This document shows positions 5,587 to 14,101 of a DNA stretch of 64,000 nucleotides, piece by piece. Under the pieces are notes generated by a model. It was not told the DNA's origin. It worked only from the letters and a program-made list of their open reading frames with translations, and made no database searches. The DNA is from Bacillota bacterium (GTDB lineage Bacteria > Bacillota > Limnochordia > Darwinibacteriales > JAAYFS01), in the NCBI GenBank assembly GCA_012728115.1, contig JAAYFS010000014.1:2279-66278 (forward strand). Direction: 5' to 3'. The position numbers and the translations under genes are program-made. How positions within the stretch are numbered: the first letter of the stretch is position 1; each line of letters begins with the position of its first letter.

Positions 5587-6888
5587 CTAACTAATTACTG
5601 TTTCGATCTGACTCTTGTTTTCAACAATAAACTTCAGCATTTGACGATTCTTTTCGGCAAGTTCCCTATAGTTATCATGGCTTCCGAAATATGCAATGCA
5701 GATCATCTGAATGGAACAGATTACATAAAATACTGCCTGCTTTTCTTCTTGCGTTAACCTTCCCTCAGAGTCATAGCCAGTGAGAATACCTTCGAGTATC
5801 TCCAACCATTTTTCGTATGCTTCATCATTGCTTTCGGACAAAATTCCAGTTGCGCAGTAACAGACGTCCCACAACCTAACATTGACTTCGCTTAAGTCGA
5901 AATCAATGAAACCGCTAACTTTGCCGTCAACAAAAAGGATATTGCTTGGATTGGGATCGCGATGAATCAGCTGTTTGGGCAATTTATCGTAGAGTTTTCC
6001 AAACACCTCGATATAGTTGGTAAAGAAACTCTCATCAAGCCCTATGTTCCACTGAATATTTTGGCGCTTAACATTAGGCAGTGCCCAGTCCGTAACATTT
6101 TGGTAAAGATCTACTTCATCGGGAAGAATATCAGCTTGGATAGTCTTAAGAGCTTTGTGGAGTTTTGCTATGCTTTGACCGTACTGCTTGGCAAATTCAA
6201 TCCGAGTAGTGCCGAAAATGTCCGATTTGGCAAGAGGTTCACCCTCAATGCCTTGAGTAAGGATGAAAATATCGTTTCCTTCCAAAGACTTTTCTCCATT
6301 CTTGGTGGGAACTGGTAGTGAAGCATTAAAGCCCTGTGCGTGCAATGCGCTGGATATTTTGATATCTTTAAGCAGTCTTTCTCGACTACCTGTCTTCAGG
6401 AAGAAGTCGTCACCGACTTTCCAAACATTTCCCGATACCTTTGCGCCATTCGTGAGATAGATGTCGCTGATGGGAAGATTCTGCTCTATATCCCAGTTTG
6501 CTAAGATCGTACGTAACTTTCGTTCCGTATACATATTTACCACCTCTGGTTTTGTTGGTTTGTGTTCTCGATAGAGTTTTAAATATTTACGCGGGGAGCA
6601 GCCGTACATTTTGACAAATGCCTTGTAGAACCCAGAGTAAGTAGCAAAGCCATATTCAAGTACTACGTCGATCGCTTTTCGTCCGCTGGCGATTTCTGCA
6701 AGCGCATGATCAAGGCGTCGTTTGAGAATGTAGTTTGCGATTGAAGAACCCATAACAGCTGAGAATAAGCGGTAAAAGTGGTAGGTTGAGTAGTTGCCCA
6801 TCCGAGCCAACTCTTCGGCTGTTATATTTGTTTTCAGGTTCTGCTCGATATATTCCAGTGACGATTTGATCACTTTCGAGTACTGCAT
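5587..6888 (-). CDS. AraC-family HTH fused to an APH/type II homoserine kinase-like phosphotransferase
   Basis: GGAGG RBS + ATG 6888; AraC double HTH (EYIEQNL...YHFYRLF...YGCSPRKY); kinase motifs LIHRDPNPSNIL and FIDFD. Confidence 0.85.
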   Translation of the reverse strand: MQYSKVIKSSLEYIEQNLKTNITAEELARMGNYSTYHFYRLFSAVMGSSIANYILKRRLDHALAEIASGRKAIDVVLEYGFATYSGFYKAFVKMYGCSPRKYLKLYREHKPTKPEVVNMYTERKLRTILANWDIEQNLPISDIYLTNGAKVSGNVWKVGDDFFLKTGSRERLLKDIKISSALHAQGFNASLPVPTKNGEKSLEGNDIFILTQGIEGEPLAKSDIFGTTRIEFAKQYGQSIAKLHKALKTIQADILPDEVDLYQNVTDWALPNVKRQNIQWNIGLDESFFTNYIEVFGKLYDKLPKQLIHRDPNPSNILFVDGKVSGFIDFDLSEVNVRLWDVCYCATGILSESNDEAYEKWLEILEGILTGYDSEGRLTQEEKQAVFYVICSIQMICIAYFGSHDNYRELAEKNRQMLKFIVENKSQIETVIS

Positions 6889-7213
6889 GGCGTCCCTCCT
6901 CCCATATGGTGGTTTCAGTATACACCGAATCCGATATGAAAACATTTCCTTTATTGCTATCATACTAAAGCTGGTGGGGCAAATAAAGCTACAAGTGCTT
7001 ATACTTATGGCTATTCTAAATTCAAAGTTGATTGTGATTACGATATGAGTTCAAGTGATATAGAAAAAAGTCGTGGAAACGGAGCGTGGTAGTATAGAAG
7101 GAATAGGCTTAGAACATTAATGTTCAAAATGCGGTAAGAAGAGTGTTAGGGTAAGGCCTATCCGTTTAAGAATTAGGCAAAAGTAGGATTTAAAATTAAT
7201 CAAAAAATTCCTA

Positions 7214-7242: not shown

Positions 7243-7269
7243 ATTAGCAATAACATAGAACAAATACTA

Positions 7270-7530
7270 AATTCGATGACAGGAGAGAGTAGGTAAGCTA
7301 CGAAGGTAAAGCGAATCAGGGGTGGTGTGAGCCTGGTCTGGAGTACTTATTGAATGGTTCCTGGAGAAGCACTGCGAAATCATTATTGAGAGTAGCTTTA
7401 AGCCGGATTTCCCACGTTATAGGGATAGGGTATGATGGTACCCGAAAAAGGGAGATAGTGTATCACTATCTAAGATTAGGTGGCAACGCGGAAGATAACT
7501 TTCGTCCTAAGAAGGACGAAAGTTTTTTGT
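7270..7530 (+). ncRNA. Trp T-box riboswitch (complete)
   Basis: AGGAGAGAGTA 5' strand; GAA-TGG Trp specifier at 7355-7357; T-box AGGTGGCAACGCG 7478-7490; terminator AACTTTCGTCC/GGACGAAAGTT + T run. Confidence 0.9.
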
Positions 7531-7544
7531 TTTCTTAGCCATTT

Positions 7545-7632
7545 CTTAGTAGTGATTCAGTACTATCTCATTAGAGTGGCACCGCGGAATGTAAGCATTT
7601 CGTCTCTAGTTTGGAGACGAAATGCTTTTTTT
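7545..7632 (+). ncRNA. Second, partial T-box (antiterminator/terminator without Stem I)
   Basis: AGAGTGGCACCGCG 7573-7586; terminator AAGCATTTCGTCTC/GAGACGAAATGCTT + T run; only about 45 nt from terminator 1. Confidence 0.8.
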
Positions 7633-7660
7633 ATTATCAAAAACGAAAGGAGTTGGCGAG

Positions 7661-9145
7661 TTGATTTATCCGAGTATCGATCAGTTTATTGAATTAAGTC
7701 GAAATGCGAAGTTAGTACCTGTTGCTTTAGAAATGGATGGCGATTTGGAAACCCCGATCAGCTTGTTCATCAAGCTTGGGCAAAACAAAAACAGCTATAT
7801 CTTAGAAAGCGTGGAGGGTGGCCAGCATTGGGCTCGCTACTCCTACATCGGTCGCAATCCATTTCTAATTATTAAAGCAAGTGATAATGTAGTAAGCGTT
7901 TTAAATACCGAAACCAACACGATTACAAACAGACATGGAGATGTTCTAGAGATCATTAAAGAGATTATGCAGGAGTATAGGATTGCTAAACTAGCAAATC
8001 TACCAGATTTTTTTGGTGGGGCGGTCGGGTACTTTGCTTATGATGTAGTTCGAAACTATGAAAAACTAAAAAACTCAAAAGTCGATAATCTCAACATGCC
8101 TGATATCCATTTGCTTCTTACAAATGAAGTTATCGTATATGACCATGTTAAACAAAAAATCATTTTAATTGTTAATGTTCCACCTTCATGTACTCCGAAA
8201 GCCAGTTACCAAAAAGCGATCGAGAGGCTGCAAGAAATCAAAGCTGAGATCTTAACTGCTAAAGACGATGTTCAACGATCAAAAATTGCACCCAGGGACG
8301 GTGAGGTCGCTTGGAGTGCTAGTACAGAGAGTAAGGATAGCTTTATGCAAAAGGTAAGGCAGATTAAATCGCACATTGAAAATGGGGAAGCTTTGCAAGT
8401 TGTTTTATCACAACGACTTTCCTTGCAAACAGAAATAGACCCATTCAATGCTTACCGTGTTCTTCGCTCACTCAATCCTTCACCATACCTTTTTTTCATC
8501 AACTATGGTGAATATCAACTAGTTGGGGCATCTCCTGAATTATTGGTAAAAGTGACAGATGGATTAGTTGAAACATGTCCGATTGCAGGTACTCGTCCTC
8601 GTGGTAAGGATCCTAGTGAGGATCAAGCCTATGTTGAAGATTTGTTGAGTGACGAGAAAGAGTTGGCGGAACATTTGATGCTAGTAGATTTGGGACGAAA
8701 TGATATCGGTAAAGTTTCTGAATTTGGAACGGTTGAAACTAAGAACTTGATGCATGTAGAAAAGTATTCGCATGTGATGCACATCGTCACTAATGTAGTT
8801 GGCAAGCTAAAGAATGGAGCTACAATGTATGATGCTCTGAAGGCGTGCTTGCCTGCCGGTACAGTTTCTGGAGCGCCCAAGGTTCGGGCGATGGAAATTA
8901 TTAACGAATTAGAGACCGAAAAGCGTGGCGTCTATGCGGGTGCAGTGGGTTATCTTGGTTTCAACGGAAACATGGATCTTTGTATCACCATTCGCACCAT
9001 AGTGTTTAAAGAAAAAACAGCGTTTGTTCAAACTGGCGCTGGGATAGTCGCCGATTCCGATCCTGAAACCGAGTATGAAGAAACCTTACGGAAAGCAAGA
9101 GCCCTATTAGAAGCCGTTAGGCAAGCGGAGGAGGAACTGTCATGA
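7661..9145 (+). CDS. trpE: Anthranilate synthase component I
   Basis: AAGGAG RBS + TTG 7661; LESVEGG, LNPSPY, GASPE, PIAGTRPRG, EHLMLVDLGRND, PAGTVSGAPK. Confidence 0.95.
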   Translation: MIYPSIDQFIELSRNAKLVPVALEMDGDLETPISLFIKLGQNKNSYILESVEGGQHWARYSYIGRNPFLIIKASDNVVSVLNTETNTITNRHGDVLEIIKEIMQEYRIAKLANLPDFFGGAVGYFAYDVVRNYEKLKNSKVDNLNMPDIHLLLTNEVIVYDHVKQKIILIVNVPPSCTPKASYQKAIERLQEIKAEILTAKDDVQRSKIAPRDGEVAWSASTESKDSFMQKVRQIKSHIENGEALQVVLSQRLSLQTEIDPFNAYRVLRSLNPSPYLFFINYGEYQLVGASPELLVKVTDGLVETCPIAGTRPRGKDPSEDQAYVEDLLSDEKELAEHLMLVDLGRNDIGKVSEFGTVETKNLMHVEKYSHVMHIVTNVVGKLKNGATMYDALKACLPAGTVSGAPKVRAMEIINELETEKRGVYAGAVGYLGFNGNMDLCITIRTIVFKEKTAFVQTGAGIVADSDPETEYEETLRKARALLEAVRQAEEELS

Positions 9146-9735
9146 TCGTTATTATCGATAACTATGATTCATTTACGTACAATCTTTATCAATACTTTGG
9201 CGAGCTTGATCCGAATATTGCTGTTTTTCGTAACGATGAGATCACGATTCAGGAGTTAGAAAAATTGCCACTTAGCCATATCGTACTATCTTCTGGAGCG
9301 GGGTCGCCAGAAAACGCTGGTGTTTCTAGCCAGGTGGTAGCTACTTTTGCGGGTAAAGTTCCGATTCTAGGAATCGGTCTTGGCCACTTAGTAATTGCAA
9401 AACATTATGGAGCTCAAATAGTTCCCGCAAAAAGAATAGCGCATGGCAAAAGCATGAGCTTTAAGCACCAAGGAGAGCAGATCTTTCATGGGGTTAAGAA
9501 CCCACTAAAAGTTACCTGTTATCATTCGTTGATTGTTGAACCAGAATCGATTCCAGACGAGTTGAAGGTTCTGGCAATAAATAATGAAGCGGAAATAATG
9601 GCGATTCGTCATCAACAAGACTTGGTTTTTGGTCTTCAGTTTCATCCCGAAGCAATCGCGACGGAATGTGGTAAACAAGTATTACACAATTTCCTAAACC
9701 AAGAATTATTGGGAGGTGGAAGCTGTGTTGCCTGA
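9142..9735 (+). CDS. trpG: Anthranilate synthase component II (class I GATase fold), catalytic Cys absent
   Basis: IDNYDSFTYNL, YHSL and QFHPE motifs; nucleophile elbow reads GIGLGHL rather than GxCLGHQ. Confidence 0.92.
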   Translation: MIVIIDNYDSFTYNLYQYFGELDPNIAVFRNDEITIQELEKLPLSHIVLSSGAGSPENAGVSSQVVATFAGKVPILGIGLGHLVIAKHYGAQIVPAKRIAHGKSMSFKHQGEQIFHGVKNPLKVTCYHSLIVEPESIPDELKVLAINNEAEIMAIRHQQDLVFGLQFHPEAIATECGKQVLHNFLNQELLGGGSCVA

Positions 9736-10747
9736 GATCTTAAACAAATTAGTCAACAGAGAAGATCTAACTGAACTAGAAATGTTCAAGTTGATGAACC
9801 AGATTATGGACGGGGAATTAACACCAGCTCAGATTGGTGCGATCCTCATGGGTTTACGGATGAAGGGTGAAACAAGCGCTGAAATAACGGGAGGGGCTAG
9901 GGTGATGCGAGATAAAGCTGTGGCGATAAATACAGATGATCTCTATGCGATCGACACTTGTGGAACTGGTGGAGATGGCGCCCATACCTTTAATATTTCT
10001 ACGGCGGTAGCCTTGATCGCTGCCGCGGCTGGAGTGCCAGTATTTAAACATGGCAATCGGTCTGTGTCCAGTAAGTGCGGAAGTGCAGATGTCCTAGAAG
10101 AGCTAGGAATCAGAATCGATCTTTGCCCAGACAATGTGAAGGAATGTGTTCGCAATGTAAATATCGGGTTTTTGTTTGCCCCCAGGTTTCATAAAACAAT
10201 GGGAAATGTGGTCCAACCTCGGAGAGAGCTTGGAGTTAGAACAATTTTCAACGTTTTAGGACCTTTAACTAACCCTGCAAGGGTTAAGGGGCAAGTGCTC
10301 GGTGTATTCTCAGCTGATTTAACTGAAACCTTAGCTTCTGCTCTCAATGCGCTTGGTTGTGAAAGAGCGTTGGTTGTGCATGGATTAGACGGATTAGATG
10401 AAATTACGATCACCACCCAAACAAAAATTACTGAACTAAAGGATGGTAAGGTGGAAACGTATCTATTAGATCCGCTTCAGTTTGGAATAGAGTATGGACA
10501 CAAAGGCGAGCTAGTCGGCGGTGATGCAGTAGAAAACTCACGTATTATCACTAATATCTTGAATGGGGAAAAAGGAGCAAAGCGAGATATTGTGCTGTTA
10601 AATGCTGCCGCAGCTTTGTATGTTGGCAAGAAAGCATCAGATTTCAAAGAAGGTATTGAACTGGCTGCTGAGATCATCGACAGTGGTGCGGCTTTTCAGA
10701 CATTAAATAGATGGATCGAAGTATCACGGGAGCTGAGAGCGTCATGA
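9725..10747 (+). CDS. trpD: Anthranilate phosphoribosyltransferase
   Basis: DTCGTGGDG, FNIST, KHGNRSVSSKCGSADVLE, RTIFNVLGPL. Confidence 0.96.
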   Translation: MLPEILNKLVNREDLTELEMFKLMNQIMDGELTPAQIGAILMGLRMKGETSAEITGGARVMRDKAVAINTDDLYAIDTCGTGGDGAHTFNISTAVALIAAAAGVPVFKHGNRSVSSKCGSADVLEELGIRIDLCPDNVKECVRNVNIGFLFAPRFHKTMGNVVQPRRELGVRTIFNVLGPLTNPARVKGQVLGVFSADLTETLASALNALGCERALVVHGLDGLDEITITTQTKITELKDGKVETYLLDPLQFGIEYGHKGELVGGDAVENSRIITNILNGEKGAKRDIVLLNAAAALYVGKKASDFKEGIELAAEIIDSGAAFQTLNRWIEVSRELRAS

Positions 10748-11517
10748 TTCTAGAAAGAATAGTAAGAGACAGGAAAGAAGAAATTGGGGTATTGAAACAG
10801 AGTCAACCACTTGAGCAAATTATTGAATTTAAAGCTGGTCGGGATCTTAAGCAAGTCGTTAAACAAGCCAAAGGTTTGGGTATTATTGCCGAAGTTAAGA
10901 AGGCATCACCGTCCAAAGGATTAATCTGCGAAGCTTTTGATCCGTTGGCGATAGCTAAAGAGTACGAAGAACAGGGTGTAGCAGGTATTTCTGTTTTAAC
11001 CGAGCCTAAACACTTTCTTGGTAAAGATGAATATTTAACAGAGATTGCCAGTAACACCTCGATTCCAGTCTTACGCAAAGACTTTATTATCGATCCTTAT
11101 CAGGTTTTACAATCAAAGTTACTTGGGGCAGATTGTATTCTATTGATTGCGGCTGTGTTAGAGGATTCTGAACTGGTAAGTTTTCAGAAACTAGCAAAAG
11201 AACTTGAACTTCAGTGCTTGGTTGAAGTGCATAACAGAAAAGAGCTTGAAAGGGTACTAAAAACTGAAGCAAGCTTGATTGGAATTAATAATCGCGATCT
11301 TAATACCTTTAAGGTTGATTTGCAAACTACTTTGGAACTAGCACCCTTAATTCCAGAAGAGATTGTGGTAATCAGTGAAAGCGGTGTTCATACGAGAGAA
11401 GATATGCTGGTTCTTGAAGAAGCTGGGGTGGATGGAGTCTTAATTGGTGAGAGTTTGATGAAGGCTTCATCGATTCCGCTGAAGCTAAAAGAACTTCGGG
11501 GTGAGCTTGGTGGATAG
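10744..11517 (+). CDS. trpC: Indole-3-glycerol phosphate synthase
   Basis: IAEVKKASPSKG, ISVLTE, LRKDFIID, GINNRDL, SESG. Confidence 0.96.
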   Translation: MILERIVRDRKEEIGVLKQSQPLEQIIEFKAGRDLKQVVKQAKGLGIIAEVKKASPSKGLICEAFDPLAIAKEYEEQGVAGISVLTEPKHFLGKDEYLTEIASNTSIPVLRKDFIIDPYQVLQSKLLGADCILLIAAVLEDSELVSFQKLAKELELQCLVEVHNRKELERVLKTEASLIGINNRDLNTFKVDLQTTLELAPLIPEEIVVISESGVHTREDMLVLEEAGVDGVLIGESLMKASSIPLKLKELRGELGG

Positions 11518-12130
11518 AACCGTAAGGGTAAAGGTTTGCGGATTGACTCGAAAAACCGACATTGATTTTGTGAATGAACTTAAACCAGATTATGTTGGGT
11601 TTGTGTTTGCTCCAAGCAAGCGCCAGGTAAAACCAAAACAAGCGCGGCAAATGATCCTTGATTTAGAGCCATCGATTAAAAAGGTTGGAATCTTTGTTGA
11701 TGCACCGAAAGAGTTTGTTAAGGACGTTTCCGAGGAGTGTAGTCTTGATATTCTGCAATTTCATGGCAATGAAACAAACGAGTATTGGCAAGGATTGGCA
11801 AAGCCTGTTTGGAAGGCTTTGCGGATAAGAAGTAAAGAGGATCTTGCGCTCGTTAACTCGTTAAAAAATATTGATGCGATACTACTTGATTCACCGACGG
11901 CTGGCTCGGGGAAGACATTTGACTGGAGCGTAGGTTCGGGTCTGAAAAGCTTTCATCCACTAGTCTTGGCAGGCGGATTAAACGCAGAAAATGTTACTGA
12001 AGCAATCGCGATTTTTAAACCCTTCGCGGTGGATGTGAGTAGTGGTGTTGAAACGGATGGACTGAAGGATTATATCAAGATCAAACAATTTATCGAGAAT
12101 GTGAGGAGATTTTGTGAGTACGATGATTAG
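11501..12130 (+). CDS. trpF: Phosphoribosylanthranilate isomerase
   Basis: [30 protein letters not shown]. Confidence 0.96.
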
Positions 12131-13310
12131 AGAAAGCAGATTTGGAATGTTCGGCGGCCAATATGTCCCCGAAACCTTAATGAGTGCACTGACTGAATTA
12201 GAGATTGAGTATAAAAAGTGTTTAGAGGATCCAGAGTTTTGGGCTGAGTATCAGTACTATGTTCGCGAATATTCAGGTAGACCAACTCCTCTTTATTACG
12301 CTGAAAACCTAACCAAAGAACTTGGTGGCGGTAAGATCTATCTCAAACGTGAGGATCTTAATCATACAGGCGCTCATAAGATCAATAACGTAATCGGGCA
12401 AGTGCTTTTAGCTCAAAGGATGGGTAAAAAGCGAATCATAGCCGAAACGGGAGCTGGACAGCATGGAGTAGCTACAGCTACCATTTGTGCGATGATGAAT
12501 TTAGAATGCGAAATCTTTATGGGTGAAGAAGATGTAAAAAGGCAAGAATTAAACGTATTTCGAATGAAGTTATTAGGAGCGAAAGTGACTGCTGTTAGTT
12601 CTGGCACTAAGACTTTGAAAGATGCGACTAATGAAGCGATTAGGGATTGGGTTACTAATGTCGATGATACCTTTTACGTAATTGGTTCGGTGGTCGGACC
12701 GCATCCATATCCATCGATGGTCAGGGATTTTCAACGCATCATCGGAGATGAGGTAAAGGAACAGATTTTAGCTATTGAAGGGCGTTTACCTGATTATTTA
12801 GTAGCTTGCGTTGGTGGCGGAAGCAACGCAATGGGATTATTCTATCCTTTTATCAACGATACCGAAGTAAAACTTTGTGGTGTTGAAGCTGGTGGGCTAG
12901 GCTTAGATACTTCCAAACATGCTGCTACCATCAGTAAGGGTTCACCTGGTGTGATTCATGGAATGATGACTTATCTATTACAAGATACTGAAGGACAGAT
13001 CATACCTGTTCATTCAATTTCTGCTGGACTTGATTATCCAGGAGTTGGACCAGAACATGCTTACCTTTATCAAAAAGGAAGAGCTCAATACAACGCTATT
13101 ACCGACAGTGAAGCTTTGGAAGCTTTTCAATTCCTCTCAAGAATCGAGGGAATTATTCCTGCTTTAGAAAGTGCACATGCCATAGCCTATGCTAAGAAAC
13201 TTGCACCAACAACCAGTAAGGATGATTTGATCGTTGTGAATCTCTCTGGTCGGGGGGATAAAGATGTTTATACTGTGGCAGAAGCATTGAAAGAAGGTGG
13301 ACTAAGATGA
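12114..13310 (+). CDS. trpB: Tryptophan synthase beta chain
   Basis: [47 protein letters not shown]. Confidence 0.98.
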
Positions 13311-14101
13311 GAATCCAATCCGTATTTGAAAATCTACTTCATCAAGGAAAGAAAGCGTTAATACCATATATTACTGCGGGCGATCCGAGTATTGCTGCCA
13401 CCGAGGAACTTGTTATAGCAATGGATCAAGCTGGCGCGAATATTATCGAGCTTGGGGTACCGTACTCCGATCCATTAGCTGATGGGGTTGTTATTCAACG
13501 AGCGACTCAGCGCGCCCTCGAAGCGGGAACCAACTTGGAAAAGGTTTTTGAGTTAGTTAGATCCTTGAATGGGAAGATAAAAGCACCATTAGTGCTACTC
13601 GTGTACTTTAACCCAATCTATCAATACGGAATCAAAAACTTTATTGAAAAATGTGTGGCTGTTGGTGTCGCAGGTTTAGTAATCCCCGATCTTCCAATAG
13701 AAGAAAGGGAGGAAATTAGGAAGATTGTCGATAGCGGTAATTACCCACTTGATCTGATTCCACTAGTTGCCCCAACCTCCCGTGAACGGATCAAGAGGGT
13801 AGTAGACGAAGCGTCGGGGTTTGTTTATGCAGTCTCTTCCAAAGGGGTAACAGGTGTGAGAAAGAAGTTTTCTGAAGACCTGGAGGGTTTTATCGGACAA
13901 ATAAAAGCCGTAACCGATATCCCAGTCGCACTTGGATTTGGAATCGGAGATGTAGAAACGGTTAGTAAAATAAAAGATTATGTTGATGGAGTTATCATTG
14001 GTAGTGTGTTAGTAGAGATGATTGAAAAGGCTAGTACTCAGAACGAAGCAGTTGGGAGAATAGGAAATTTTATAAAAACTCTTCGGGAGGTACTCGATTA
14101 G
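13307..14101 (+). CDS. trpA: Tryptophan synthase alpha chain
   Basis: [32 protein letters not shown]. Confidence 0.97.

What the first reader, a model, noticed from the sequence alone, without database searches (positions are those of the whole stretch)
9142..9735. TrpG without its catalytic cysteine
Seen: the nucleophile elbow is PILGIGLGHL (GGT at 9376-9378) instead of GxCLGHQ, and the oxyanion strand is SSGAG instead of SPGPG, while HPE and an uninterrupted ORF remain. Established: class I GATases need Cys-His-Glu, and TrpE alone can use NH3. Several coordinated changes argue against a single sequencing error. Inference: a pseudo-enzyme subunit kept for structure or stability of an ammonia-dependent anthranilate synthase.
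Basis: partly seen in the sequence, partly recalled or inferred. Interest (0 to 1): 0.66.

Follow-up and report, generated by a model that had tools for sequence, protein, structure and literature searches.

The report
Dead-glutaminase TrpG kept in trp operon
The small subunit of the first tryptophan-pathway enzyme has lost the cysteine it needs to split glutamine yet stays conserved, and this loss recurs at least three, probably four, times in Limnochordia bacteria that also lack an ammonium transporter, which suggests they make tryptophan from free ammonia.

Summary
ORF 9142-9735 is a TrpG/PabA-type class I amidotransferase inside a T-box-controlled trpEGDCFBA operon. It has Gly79 (GGT 9376-9378) where the nucleophile Cys should be. 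It also has Leu83 for Gln, SSGAG for SPGPG and Cys126 for an invariant Arg.

This is not an assembly error. All 32 clade sequences read carry Gly79, as do three related species genomes, with GGT/GGC synonymous drift.

The gene is under purifying selection (pN 0.17-0.26, pS 0.68-0.87). It models as a PabA fold (pLDDT 93.7, TM 0.93-0.98). Its only losses at conserved positions are in the glutaminase pocket.

No second TrpG/PabA exists in these genomes. TrpE looks fully functional and is their only chorismate-binding enzyme.

The changes P51S, Q83L and R126C recur.

None of the 7 genomes with only a nucleophile-less TrpG has an Amt ammonium transporter, against 22 of 26 with canonical TrpG.

Best reading: a pseudo-glutaminase partner of an ammonia-dependent anthranilate synthase in ammonia-rich habitats. 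This is not biochemically tested. I class it as a new variant of a known kind.

The parts
7267..7512 (+). T-box leader upstream of trpE; UGG follows the conserved GAA of the specifier loop (Trp specifier, inferred by position)
   Evidence: Rfam RF00230, 97.9 bits against gathering score 93, full model 1-219
7622..9145 (+). trpE, anthranilate synthase component I, apparently fully functional; stop overlaps the trpG start (ATGA)
   Evidence: TIGR00564 585.5 bits (cut-off 517.7). PIAGTRPRG, LMLVDLGRND, GTVSGAPK and GAGIVADS motifs align to solved TrpE structures. D356/R359, which equal PabB D308/R311 of the generic interface, are invariant
9142..9735 (+). trpG-like pseudo-glutaminase, 197 aa
   Evidence: PF00117 166 bits, TIGR00566 216 bits; below every NCBIfam equivalog cut-off, e.g. 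NF005799 228 against 327. AF2 pLDDT 93.7; TM 0.93-0.98 and rmsd 0.8-0.9 A to E. coli PabA 8rp0
9289..9303 (+). Oxyanion strand SSGAG (residues 50-54) in place of SPGPG; Gly52 is kept, Pro51 and Pro53 are lost
   Evidence: P51 and P53 are 100% conserved in 80 canonical sequences and are S and A/S in the clade
9376..9378 (+). GGT = Gly79 at the nucleophile-elbow position of the catalytic Cys (PabA C79)
   Evidence: residue numbering matches E. coli PabA C79/H168/E170 (PMC7617670)
9388..9390 (+). TTA = Leu83 replacing the conserved Gln of G-x-C-x-G-H-Q
   Evidence: Q in 79 of 80 canonical sequences, L in all clade species
9517..9519 (+). TGT = Cys126 replacing the invariant Arg of the T-R-Y-H-S strand; Tyr127 and His128 are kept
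   Evidence: R in 80 of 80 canonical sequences, C in all clade members. The same R->C change occurs in G052 and G048b, which lie in a separate part of the tree
9643..9651 (+). His168-Pro-Glu170, the remaining two triad residues; retained here but replaced by Cys and Gly in the G008/P0002 species
9716..10747 (+). trpD; GTG start overlaps the last 20 nt of trpG; the trpG tail LLGGGSCVA encodes the GGAGG ribosome-binding site
   Evidence: the tail is disordered in the model (pLDDT <50 for 193-197)
10711..14101 (+). trpC (10711-11517), trpF (11501-12130), trpB (12114-13310), trpA (13307-14101), all overlapping or abutting
   Evidence: the same gene order, at 60-86% identity, is found in G008, G013 and G011 and

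Best explanation
The gene encodes a catalytically dead glutaminase subunit (pseudo-TrpG) that is still made and still selected for as the partner of TrpE.

Shown:
- The nucleophile Cys, the Gln-binding Gln83, both prolines of the oxyanion strand, Ser105 and Arg126 are replaced.
- The rest of the protein, including Tyr127 (a generic-interface residue in E. coli PabA) and His128, is conserved under purifying selection.
- The predicted fold is that of PabA.
- TrpE and the five downstream trp genes are intact, and the operon sits behind a T-box leader that probably reads tRNA-Trp.
- The genome has no other TrpG/PabA.

Inferred:
- Anthranilate synthase here uses free NH3 instead of glutamine. TrpE aminates chorismate directly. 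TrpG contributes only what a folded partner gives, such as complex formation, stability or shaping the interface where the ammonia tunnel begins.
- This works because the organisms live at high ammonia. Members of the clade come from manure-fed biogas reactors.
- The genomes have also dispensed with the Amt ammonium transporter, which I take (from general knowledge) to matter mainly when ammonium is scarce.
- The same outcome arose in at least three, probably four, lineages of the class. This argues that it is a tolerated or favoured state and not an accident.
For: Active-site losses fixed in a clade:
- The alignment of the window protein with P0001-P0004 and canonical relatives shows the replacements.
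- Orthologues in G008, G011 and G013 share them.
- All 32 cluster members read have Gly79.
- The only clade-specific changes at positions conserved in at least 85% of sequences are P51S, P53A/S, C79G, Q83L, S105x and R126C.
- The clade is monophyletic (100/99) on a 0.54 stem.

Still selected:
- pN is 0.17-0.26 against pS 0.68-0.87; dN/dS is 0.06-0.18 where it can be calculated, similar to TrpE.
- Constraint is only mildly relaxed: TrpG identity is 57-69% against 71-77% predicted from TrpE divergence.
- AF2 pLDDT is 93.7, with TM 0.93-0.98 to PabA.

No alternative glutaminase:
- PF00117 census of the window's genome and of relatives.
- A single PF00425 protein per genome in G000, G008, G011 and G013.

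Pathway otherwise live:
- T-box leader.
- TrpE above its equivalog cut-off.
- Chorismate synthase present.
- The whole operon is conserved.

Glutamine is available: GS is present in all genomes tested and PyrG keeps its Cys. The loss is therefore specific to TrpG.

Recurrence:
- G047 has Ser79 (AGT), G052 has Ser79 (TCT), G048b has Gly79 and G086 has Gly79.
- These sit in separate parts of the tree. The best trees need 3 changes without G086 and 4 with it.
- Ten further database clusters lack the Cys.

Ecology:
- Amt is present in 0 of 7 genomes with only a nucleophile-less TrpG and in 22 of 26 with canonical TrpG only. Fisher p = 7.7e-5, not corrected for phylogeny.
- One clade variant is deposited under LFRM01, the thermophilic manure biogas-reactor project.

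Literature:
- The ammonia-dependent AS reaction needs only the alpha subunit, at high ammonium (PMC10464499).
- C79/H168/E170 form the triad, G52/L80 the oxyanion hole, and Y127/S171 the generic interface in PabA (PMC7617670).
- From my own memory, not checked here: a site-directed Cys84->Gly TrpG of Serratia marcescens lost the glutamine-dependent activity but kept the NH3-dependent activity (Paluh et al., J Biol Chem 1985).
Against:
- If TrpE alone can use NH3, the reason for keeping TrpG is not explained by sequence. 'Structural partner' is an inference from conservation of the fold and of Tyr127, and of TrpE D356/R359.
- A TrpE change I first took as co-evolution (GD[IV]FQ -> G[EA]A[LFY]Q) also occurs with canonical TrpG partners (G084, G045, M. 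tuberculosis), so it carries no weight.
- The Amt association is not phylogenetically corrected. It is not absolute: 4 canonical-TrpG genomes lack Amt.
- All genomes are MAGs, 74-100% complete.
- The recurrent identical replacements (R126C, P51S, Q83L) could mean that the pocket gained a new role and did not simply die.
Confidence: 0.74

Rival explanations
1. The former glutaminase pocket was rebuilt for a new job. It might be an entry gate for NH3/NH4+ into the tunnel. It might be a metal or redox site formed by Cys126, His128 and His/Cys168. It might be a ligand-sensing regulatory site on anthranilate synthase.
For: - The same replacements recur in lineages placed apart on the tree: R126C in the Gly79 clade, G052 and G048b; P51S in the Gly79 clade, G047, G048b and G086; Q83L in the Gly79 clade, G047 and G048b.
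- Cys126 is invariant in all 32 clade members read.
- E. coli PabA binds Zn2+ through C79, H128 and H168 (PMC7617670). Position 168 is His or Cys in the clade.
- Most replacements are to smaller residues.
Against: - R->C (CGY->TGY) and P->S (CCN->TCN) are single C->T transitions, so recurrence under relaxed constraint is not very surprising.
- G047 keeps Arg126, and some of its relatives have Val there.
- G086 has a different set of changes (GMH, RYDS).
Confidence: 0.12
2. The protein still hydrolyses glutamine using a substitute nucleophile. Candidates are Cys126 or Ser51 in the Gly79 clade, and Ser79 in a Ser-His-Glu triad in G047 and G052.
For: His168 and Glu170 are retained in the window protein and in most lineages. 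A new invariant Cys sits two residues from His128. Ser79 lineages exist.
Against: - Gln83 and the oxyanion-strand prolines are lost together with the Cys.
- The G008/P0002 species has also lost His168 and Glu170, so no His-dependent chemistry is conserved across the clade.
- The nucleophile elbow is the geometrically required position in this fold.
- From memory, not checked here: Cys->Ser variants of class I amidotransferases bind glutamine but do not turn it over. PDB 1c30 is the C269S mutant of the carbamoyl phosphate synthetase small subunit (title listed).
Confidence: 0.06
3. The protein has no function. TrpE works alone, and the ORF persists only because it carries the trpD ribosome-binding site and start, or because too little time has passed for decay.
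For: The trpG 3' end overlaps trpD by 20 nt and encodes its GGAGG site. TrpG evolves somewhat faster than expected from TrpE. G086's copy has a very long branch, 1.7 against a median of 0.29.
Against: - Synonymous sites are saturated between species while 57-69% of residues are kept and no frame is broken in any of the sequences examined.
- dN/dS is well below 1 and similar to TrpE.
- Losses are confined to the active site.
- A coupling role would constrain only the last ~30 nt.
Confidence: 0.05
4. Another glutaminase in the cell delivers ammonia to this TrpE.
For: The genome encodes a peptidase-C26-like class I GATase-fold protein with an intact Cys (AICRGMQ). MAGs are incomplete.
Against: - No TrpG/PabA-type protein is found in G000, G008, G011 or G013, which are 96-99% complete.
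- The TrpE docking surface would be occupied by the conserved pseudo-TrpG.
- No precedent is known to me.
Confidence: 0.02
5. Assembly or sequencing artefact.
For: None found.
Against: The same residues occur in independent assemblies, species and hundreds of contigs, with synonymous codon drift.
Confidence: 0.01

Closest known systems
Canonical TrpG/PabA (anthranilate / aminodeoxychorismate synthase component II; E. coli PabA 8rp0, S. solfataricus TrpG 1qdl, S. marcescens TrpG 1i7q)
   Same: Same fold (TM 0.87-0.98), same length and same operon position after trpE. About 50% identity. Same residue numbering as PabA. Keeps Gly52, Leu80, Tyr127, His128, His168 and Glu170.
   Different: Lacks the nucleophile Cys79, Gln83, Pro51, Pro53, Ser105 and Arg126. 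Scores below every NCBIfam equivalog cut-off. Predicted to have no glutaminase activity.
Carbamoyl phosphate synthetase I of ureotelic vertebrates (glutaminase-like domain without the catalytic Cys; uses free ammonia)
   Same: A class I amidotransferase module that lost its nucleophile but is kept as part of an ammonia-using synthetase. Loss of the Cys is mentioned in PMC7657897 (listed; not read in detail). The rest is from my general knowledge.
   Different: Different synthase and different kingdom. There it is a fused domain with an acquired allosteric role (N-acetylglutamate dependence). Here it is a separate subunit in bacteria, with the loss repeated in several lineages.
Laboratory Cys84->Gly mutant of Serratia marcescens TrpG (Paluh et al. 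1985, recalled from memory, not held in the library)
   Same: The same residue change at the same position. The mutant was reported to lose the glutamine-dependent activity and keep the NH3-dependent activity.
   Different: That was an engineered single change. Here the change is natural and fixed, and it is accompanied by dismantling of the rest of the glutamine pocket.
Stand-alone NH3-dependent relatives in other amidotransferase families (e.g. NH3-dependent NAD synthetase NadE; PMC3376133, listed)
   Same: The switch from glutamine to ammonia as nitrogen donor is a lineage-specific trait.
   Different: Those enzymes simply lack the glutaminase module. Here the module is retained as a dead subunit.

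Membership tests
TrpG/PabA subfamily of class I glutamine amidotransferases (TIGR00566, PF00117) | Sequence and fold of the family | tested here: met
   TIGR00566 215.7 bits (cut-off 121); PF00117 166.4 bits. AF2 model has TM 0.93-0.98 to PabA 8rp0.
TrpG/PabA subfamily of class I glutamine amidotransferases (TIGR00566, PF00117) | Catalytic Cys in the nucleophile elbow G-x-C-x-G | tested here: not met
   Gly79 (GGT 9376-9378). 196 of 200 homologues have Cys.
TrpG/PabA subfamily of class I glutamine amidotransferases (TIGR00566, PF00117) | His and Glu of the triad (H-P-E) | tested here: met
   H168 and E170 are present in the window protein. They are lost (C168, G170) in the related species G008/P0002.
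TrpG/PabA subfamily of class I glutamine amidotransferases (TIGR00566, PF00117) | Oxyanion strand S-P-G-P-G and the Gln-binding Gln of G-H-Q | tested here: not met
   SSGAG and G-H-L. P51 and P53 are 100% and Q83 is 99% conserved in canonical sequences.
TrpG/PabA subfamily of class I glutamine amidotransferases (TIGR00566, PF00117) | Equivalog-level score (aminodeoxychorismate/anthranilate synthase component II models) | tested here: not met
   Best stand-alone component II model NF005799 scores 227.7 bits against a 327 cut-off. All equivalog models are below their cut-offs.
TrpG/PabA subfamily of class I glutamine amidotransferases (TIGR00566, PF00117) | Glutaminase activity stimulated by the synthase subunit | not testable with these tools
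   Needs an enzyme assay.
Pseudo-enzyme subunit of an ammonia-dependent amidotransferase (CPS I-like situation) | Catalytic residue loss fixed across a clade, not a private mutation | tested here: met
   Four species genomes and all 32 sequences read. The clade has 100/99 support.
Pseudo-enzyme subunit of an ammonia-dependent amidotransferase (CPS I-like situation) | Remainder of the protein under purifying selection with the fold retained | tested here: met
   pN 0.17-0.26 against pS 0.68-0.87; pLDDT 93.7; losses confined to the pocket.
Pseudo-enzyme subunit of an ammonia-dependent amidotransferase (CPS I-like situation) | Synthase partner intact and no active paralogue to replace the dead subunit | tested here: met
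   TrpE 585 bits, above its cut-off. No other TrpG/PabA. A single PF00425 protein. Limited by MAG completeness of 96-99%.
Pseudo-enzyme subunit of an ammonia-dependent amidotransferase (CPS I-like situation) | Physical complex with the synthase | tested here: inconclusive
   The generic-interface residues Tyr127 (TrpG) and D356/R359 (TrpE) are conserved. No complex model or binding data.
Pseudo-enzyme subunit of an ammonia-dependent amidotransferase (CPS I-like situation) | Synthase reaction runs on free ammonia in vivo | not testable with these tools
   Only indirect evidence: Amt is absent in 7 of 7 such genomes against 4 of 26 canonical ones, and one clade variant has a biogas-reactor origin.

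The most novel reading that the evidence does not exclude
Loss of the TrpG nucleophile is a repeated, selected adaptation of Limnochordia to ammonia-rich anaerobic habitats, not a tolerated decay. The recurring replacements (Cys79->Ser/Gly, Gln83->Leu, Pro51->Ser, Arg126->Cys) rebuild the old glutamine pocket into something new. It could be an open entry port feeding external NH3 into the TrpE tunnel, or a Cys/His metal or redox site that regulates anthranilate synthase. Under this reading the 'dead' subunit is a neofunctionalised ammonia-handling or regulatory subunit.
Probability: 0.15. Interest if true: 0.85.

Novelty: new variant of a known kind. Interest (0 to 1): 0.7.

Why it matters
Glutamine amidotransferases are a textbook case of channelled ammonia. 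Natural, fixed loss of the glutaminase half is well known for vertebrate CPS I. In the held library I found no report of it for anthranilate synthase.

Here evolution repeated a classic site-directed experiment (Cys->Gly in TrpG) at least three, probably four, times in one bacterial class. It kept the dead subunit under selection. It did so only in genomes that also lack the Amt transporter.

This has three consequences:
1. It gives a testable link between habitat ammonia and the nitrogen donor used in amino-acid biosynthesis.
2. It offers a natural series (Cys, Ser, Gly, then loss of His/Glu) for asking what the glutaminase subunit contributes to TrpE apart from catalysis.
3. It flags an annotation problem. 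These proteins are all named 'aminodeoxychorismate/anthranilate synthase component II' in public records. Metabolic reconstructions of biogas-reactor Limnochordia therefore assume glutamine-dependent Trp synthesis.

Tried and rejected
1. Co-evolution of TrpE. The clade's TrpE has G[EA]A[LFY]Q where most have GD[IV]FQ. This segment corresponds to PabB G207-Y210, which completes the glutaminase site. I first read it as a compensating change. Rejected as evidence: GEAFQ and GEVLQ also occur with canonical TrpG (G084, G045, G091, M. tuberculosis).

2. 'No glutamine in the cell'. Rejected: glutamine synthetase is present in all 9 genomes tested, and PyrG keeps its Cys.

3. Single ancient origin of all nucleophile-less TrpGs. 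Rejected: the careful tree needs at least 3 changes, and 0 of 200 bootstrap trees have one origin. The Ser79 codons differ (AGT in G047, TCT in G052).

4. The conserved C-terminal tail LLGGGSCVA as a clade-specific functional motif. Rejected: it overlaps the trpD start and ribosome-binding site, canonical relatives also end in G-rich tails, and it is disordered in the model.

5. dN/dS between near-identical variants (window against P0001). There are only 5 differences in trpG, which is uninformative.

6. The genome-contig scan with the single protein returned only canonical relatives at 58% identity or less, and none of the clade.

7. Literature role of Arg126. It is not mentioned in PMC7617670, and the S. 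marcescens structure paper is not held.

9. Earlier scan notes held nothing relevant.
Full report
**1. What is at the coordinates**

ORF 9142..9735 (+) encodes 197 aa. It matches PF00117 (166.4 bits) and the TrpG/PabA subfamily model TIGR00566 (215.7 bits, cut-off 121). It falls below every equivalog-level cut-off; for example NF005799 scores 227.7 against 327.

The ORF lies in a tightly overlapping trpE (7622-9145), trpG, trpD (9716-10747), trpC, trpF, trpB, trpA (to 14101) operon. The operon sits behind a T-box leader at 7267-7512 (97.9 bits, gathering score 93). In that leader, UGG follows the conserved GAA of the specifier loop.

Numbering coincides with E. coli PabA. In PabA, C79/H168/E170 are the triad, G52/L80 form the oxyanion hole, H128 is needed for glutamine binding, and Y127/S171 belong to the substrate-independent interface with the synthase (PMC7617670).

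**2. It is real and fixed**

A search of 5.8 billion protein clusters gave one near-identical cluster and three clusters at 62-69% identity. All are 197 aa, and all have Gly79, Leu83, Cys126 and S-S/C-G-A/S. The next hits (59% or less) are canonical.

A profile of the clade pulled out only these four clusters, at 377-399 bits against 260 for the next hit. Of 200 homologues, 196 have C..HQ and only these four have G..HL. All 32 member sequences read have Gly79.

One variant (P0219) is on more than 100 contigs; the look-up found it in 149 blocks of the collection, and one of its contigs is 1.98 Mb. An independent SRA assembly carries the window's version with 5 nucleotide differences.

In the window's GTDB order (41 genomes), three other species genomes (G008, G011, G013) have the same protein in the same operon. 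The Gly codon is GGT in the window lineage and GGC in the others. An assembly error is excluded.

**3. What exactly changed**

I compared the four species against 80 canonical TrpGs. The only positions conserved in at least 85% of sequences and replaced in every clade member are:
- P51S
- P53A/S
- C79G
- Q83L
- S105 (to M, T or I)
- R126C

Part of this set lies in the mapped glutaminase site: the oxyanion strand, the nucleophile elbow and the G-H-Q motif. The roles of Ser105 and Arg126 I could not trace. The G008 species has gone further, with H168C and E170G. TrpD shows no such clade-specific losses, and TrpE shows only five mild ones.

**4. It is maintained, not decaying**

Between species, synonymous sites are saturated (pS 0.68-0.87) while pN is 0.17-0.26. 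Where dS can be calculated, dN/dS is 0.06-0.18. For TrpE the values are dN 0.19-0.21 and dN/dS 0.12.

Relative to canonical genome pairs, TrpG identity is 57-69% where TrpE divergence predicts 71-77% (residual SD 3.3). Constraint is therefore relaxed, but only mildly.

AlphaFold2 with an 80-sequence alignment gives pLDDT 93.7 and pTM 0.91. The model superposes on E. coli PabA at TM 0.93-0.98 and rmsd 0.8-0.9 A. Tyr127 and His128 are invariant. TrpE D356 and R359, the equivalents of PabB D308 and R311 in the generic interface, are also invariant.

**5. No substitute glutaminase; the pathway is otherwise live**

The window's genome (1.95 Mb, 95.8% complete) has three PF00117 proteins:
- this one;
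- PyrG, with an intact GICLGMQ;
- a 233-aa peptidase-C26-like protein.

G008, G011 and G013 likewise have no second TrpG/PabA. Each of the four genomes has a single chorismate-binding enzyme, TrpE.

TrpE scores 585 bits against TIGR00564 (cut-off 517.7). It aligns across all catalytic motifs with solved TrpE structures. Chorismate synthase is present in all four genomes. Glutamine synthetase is present in all nine genomes tested. Glutamine is therefore available, and the loss is specific to TrpG.

**6. The loss is recurrent**

A survey of all 95 genomes of the class found further nucleophile-less TrpGs:

| Genome | Family | Residue 79 (codon) | Other changes | Context |
|---|---|---|---|---|
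| G047 | f7 | Ser (AGT) | SSGPS, Q83L | full trp operon |
| G052 | f8 | Ser (TCT) | Q83H, R126C, S129A | full trp operon |
| G048b | f7 | Gly | SSGSG, H82L, Q83L, R126C | trpE-trpG pair; the same genome also has a canonical TrpG |
| G086 | f16 | Gly | ASGTG, GMH, RYDS | trpE-G-D |

A careful IQ-TREE places the window's clade (100/99) as sister (89/90) to canonical TrpGs of its own order. G047, G048b and G052 sit in a separate, well-supported clade (99/95) together with canonical G048, G049 and G050. The label needs at least 3 changes, and none of 200 bootstrap trees has a single origin. A quick tree (SH-aLRT support only, no bootstrap) places G086 inside its own family's canonical clade, on a branch of 1.7 against a median of 0.29; rows that long are not placed reliably, and the well-supported branches of that tree force only 2 changes.

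The two Ser79 codons are reached from TGY by different single changes. A database search with these three sequences found ten more clusters without the Cys, nine with Ser and one with Gly, at 76-99% identity within types. They too are fixed forms.

P51S, Q83L and R126C recur across the lineages. R->C and P->S are single C->T transitions, so this may be mutation bias under relaxed constraint. I cannot exclude selection for a rebuilt pocket.

**7. Association with loss of the ammonium transporter**

Results for PF00909 (Amt) across the class:

| Group | Genomes with Amt |
|---|---|
| Only a nucleophile-less TrpG | 0 of 7 |
| Canonical TrpG only | 22 of 26 |
| All genomes of the class | 25 of 95 |
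| Control genomes | 14 of 14 |

Fisher p = 7.7e-5. If the four loss lineages are independent and the base rate of lacking Amt is 4/26, all four lacking Amt has probability about 6e-4.

This is not phylogenetically corrected and may be confounded by habitat or genome size. Four canonical genomes also lack Amt, so Amt loss is at most permissive.

Members of the clade are named 'Limnochordia bacterium' or 'Firmicutes bacterium' MAGs. One variant is deposited under LFRM01, the thermophilic manure-fed biogas-reactor project of Campanaro et al. 2016.

The pattern of a large Trp-auxotrophic family beside a Trp-prototrophic one matches the description of the DTU010/MBA03 order (PMC12663870). I could not confirm that the window's order is that one.

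**8. Mechanism**

Shown: the glutaminase pocket is dismantled, while the fold, the interface residues, the TrpE partner and the operon are kept under selection, with no replacement glutaminase.

Established: the ammonia-dependent anthranilate synthase reaction needs only the TrpE subunit and works at high ammonium (PMC10464499). From memory, a Cys84->Gly TrpG of S. marcescens keeps the NH3-dependent activity.

Inferred: these bacteria run anthranilate synthase on free NH3, and TrpG serves as a non-catalytic partner. What TrpG contributes is not shown. It could be stability, assembly, or the tunnel mouth, which in ADCS is formed by both subunits next to the glutaminase site (PMC7617670).

**9. 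Comparison and novelty**

In working principle the closest parallel is vertebrate CPS I: a dead class I glutaminase module in an ammonia-using synthetase. In sequence the closest is canonical TrpG/PabA, whose defining catalytic features were tested here and are not met.

Four literature searches found no report of a natural nucleophile-less TrpG. I class it as a new variant of a known kind. The recurrence and the Amt link are what raise its interest above a single odd gene.

**10. Limits**

There is no biochemistry, no expression data, no reads and no complex model. All genomes are MAGs. The statistics are not corrected for phylogeny. The role of Arg126 could not be traced in the literature.

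Noticed in passing
whole genomes G000, G008, G011, G013, G047, G052, G086 versus 26 canonical-TrpG genomes of the class: The Amt ammonium transporter (PF00909) is absent from all 7 genomes whose only TrpG lacks the nucleophile. It is present in 22 of 26 genomes with canonical TrpG only. Only 25 of 95 genomes of the class have Amt, although all 14 control genomes do.
   Followed up: yes
L134 (G047), L135 (G052), L136 (G048b), L138 (G086): Further nucleophile-less TrpGs (Ser79 or Gly79) occur in other families of the class. Three sit in trp operons. G048 carries both a canonical TrpG and a trpE-trpG pair with Gly79/Cys126. G086's copy has a terminal branch of 1.7 substitutions per site.
   Followed up: partly
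L104 (G008) trpG; proteins P0002 and P0203: One species of the clade has also replaced His168 by Cys and Glu170 by Gly (FCPGS), so the whole triad is gone. Position 168 is thus His or Cys. Together with the invariant Cys126 and His128, this recalls the Zn2+ site (C79/H128/H168) seen in E. coli PabA.
   Followed up: no
window 7267-7512 (+): A T-box leader lies upstream of trpE, with UGG directly after the conserved GAA of the specifier loop. The operon therefore probably responds to uncharged tRNA-Trp.
   Followed up: partly
window's genome G000 (all contigs): Only three PF00117 proteins are found in the genome: pseudo-TrpG, PyrG and a peptidase-C26-like protein. No CarA, GuaA or HisH glutaminase was detected, which suggests a reduced set of amidotransferase pathways in this 1.95 Mb genome.
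   Followed up: no
order-level survey, genomes G001-G040: 31 of the 41 genomes of the order have no trpG at all, including all 28 genomes of family f4. This fits the Trp auxotrophy reported for one family of the DTU010/MBA03 order (PMC12663870). The identity of the window's order with DTU010 was not confirmed.
   Followed up: partly
window 9716-9735: trpD starts (GTG 9716) inside the last 20 nt of trpG. The conserved TrpG tail LLGGGSCVA is the translation of the trpD ribosome-binding site GGAGGTGG, read in another frame. This explains its conservation despite being disordered in the model.
   Followed up: partly
window 5587-6963 (-): A 458-aa ORF is divergent from the trp operon. By eye it combines an AraC-type helix-turn-helix N-terminus with a C-terminal region carrying an HRDxxxxN kinase/phosphotransferase-like motif. 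It was not run against any library.
   Followed up: no
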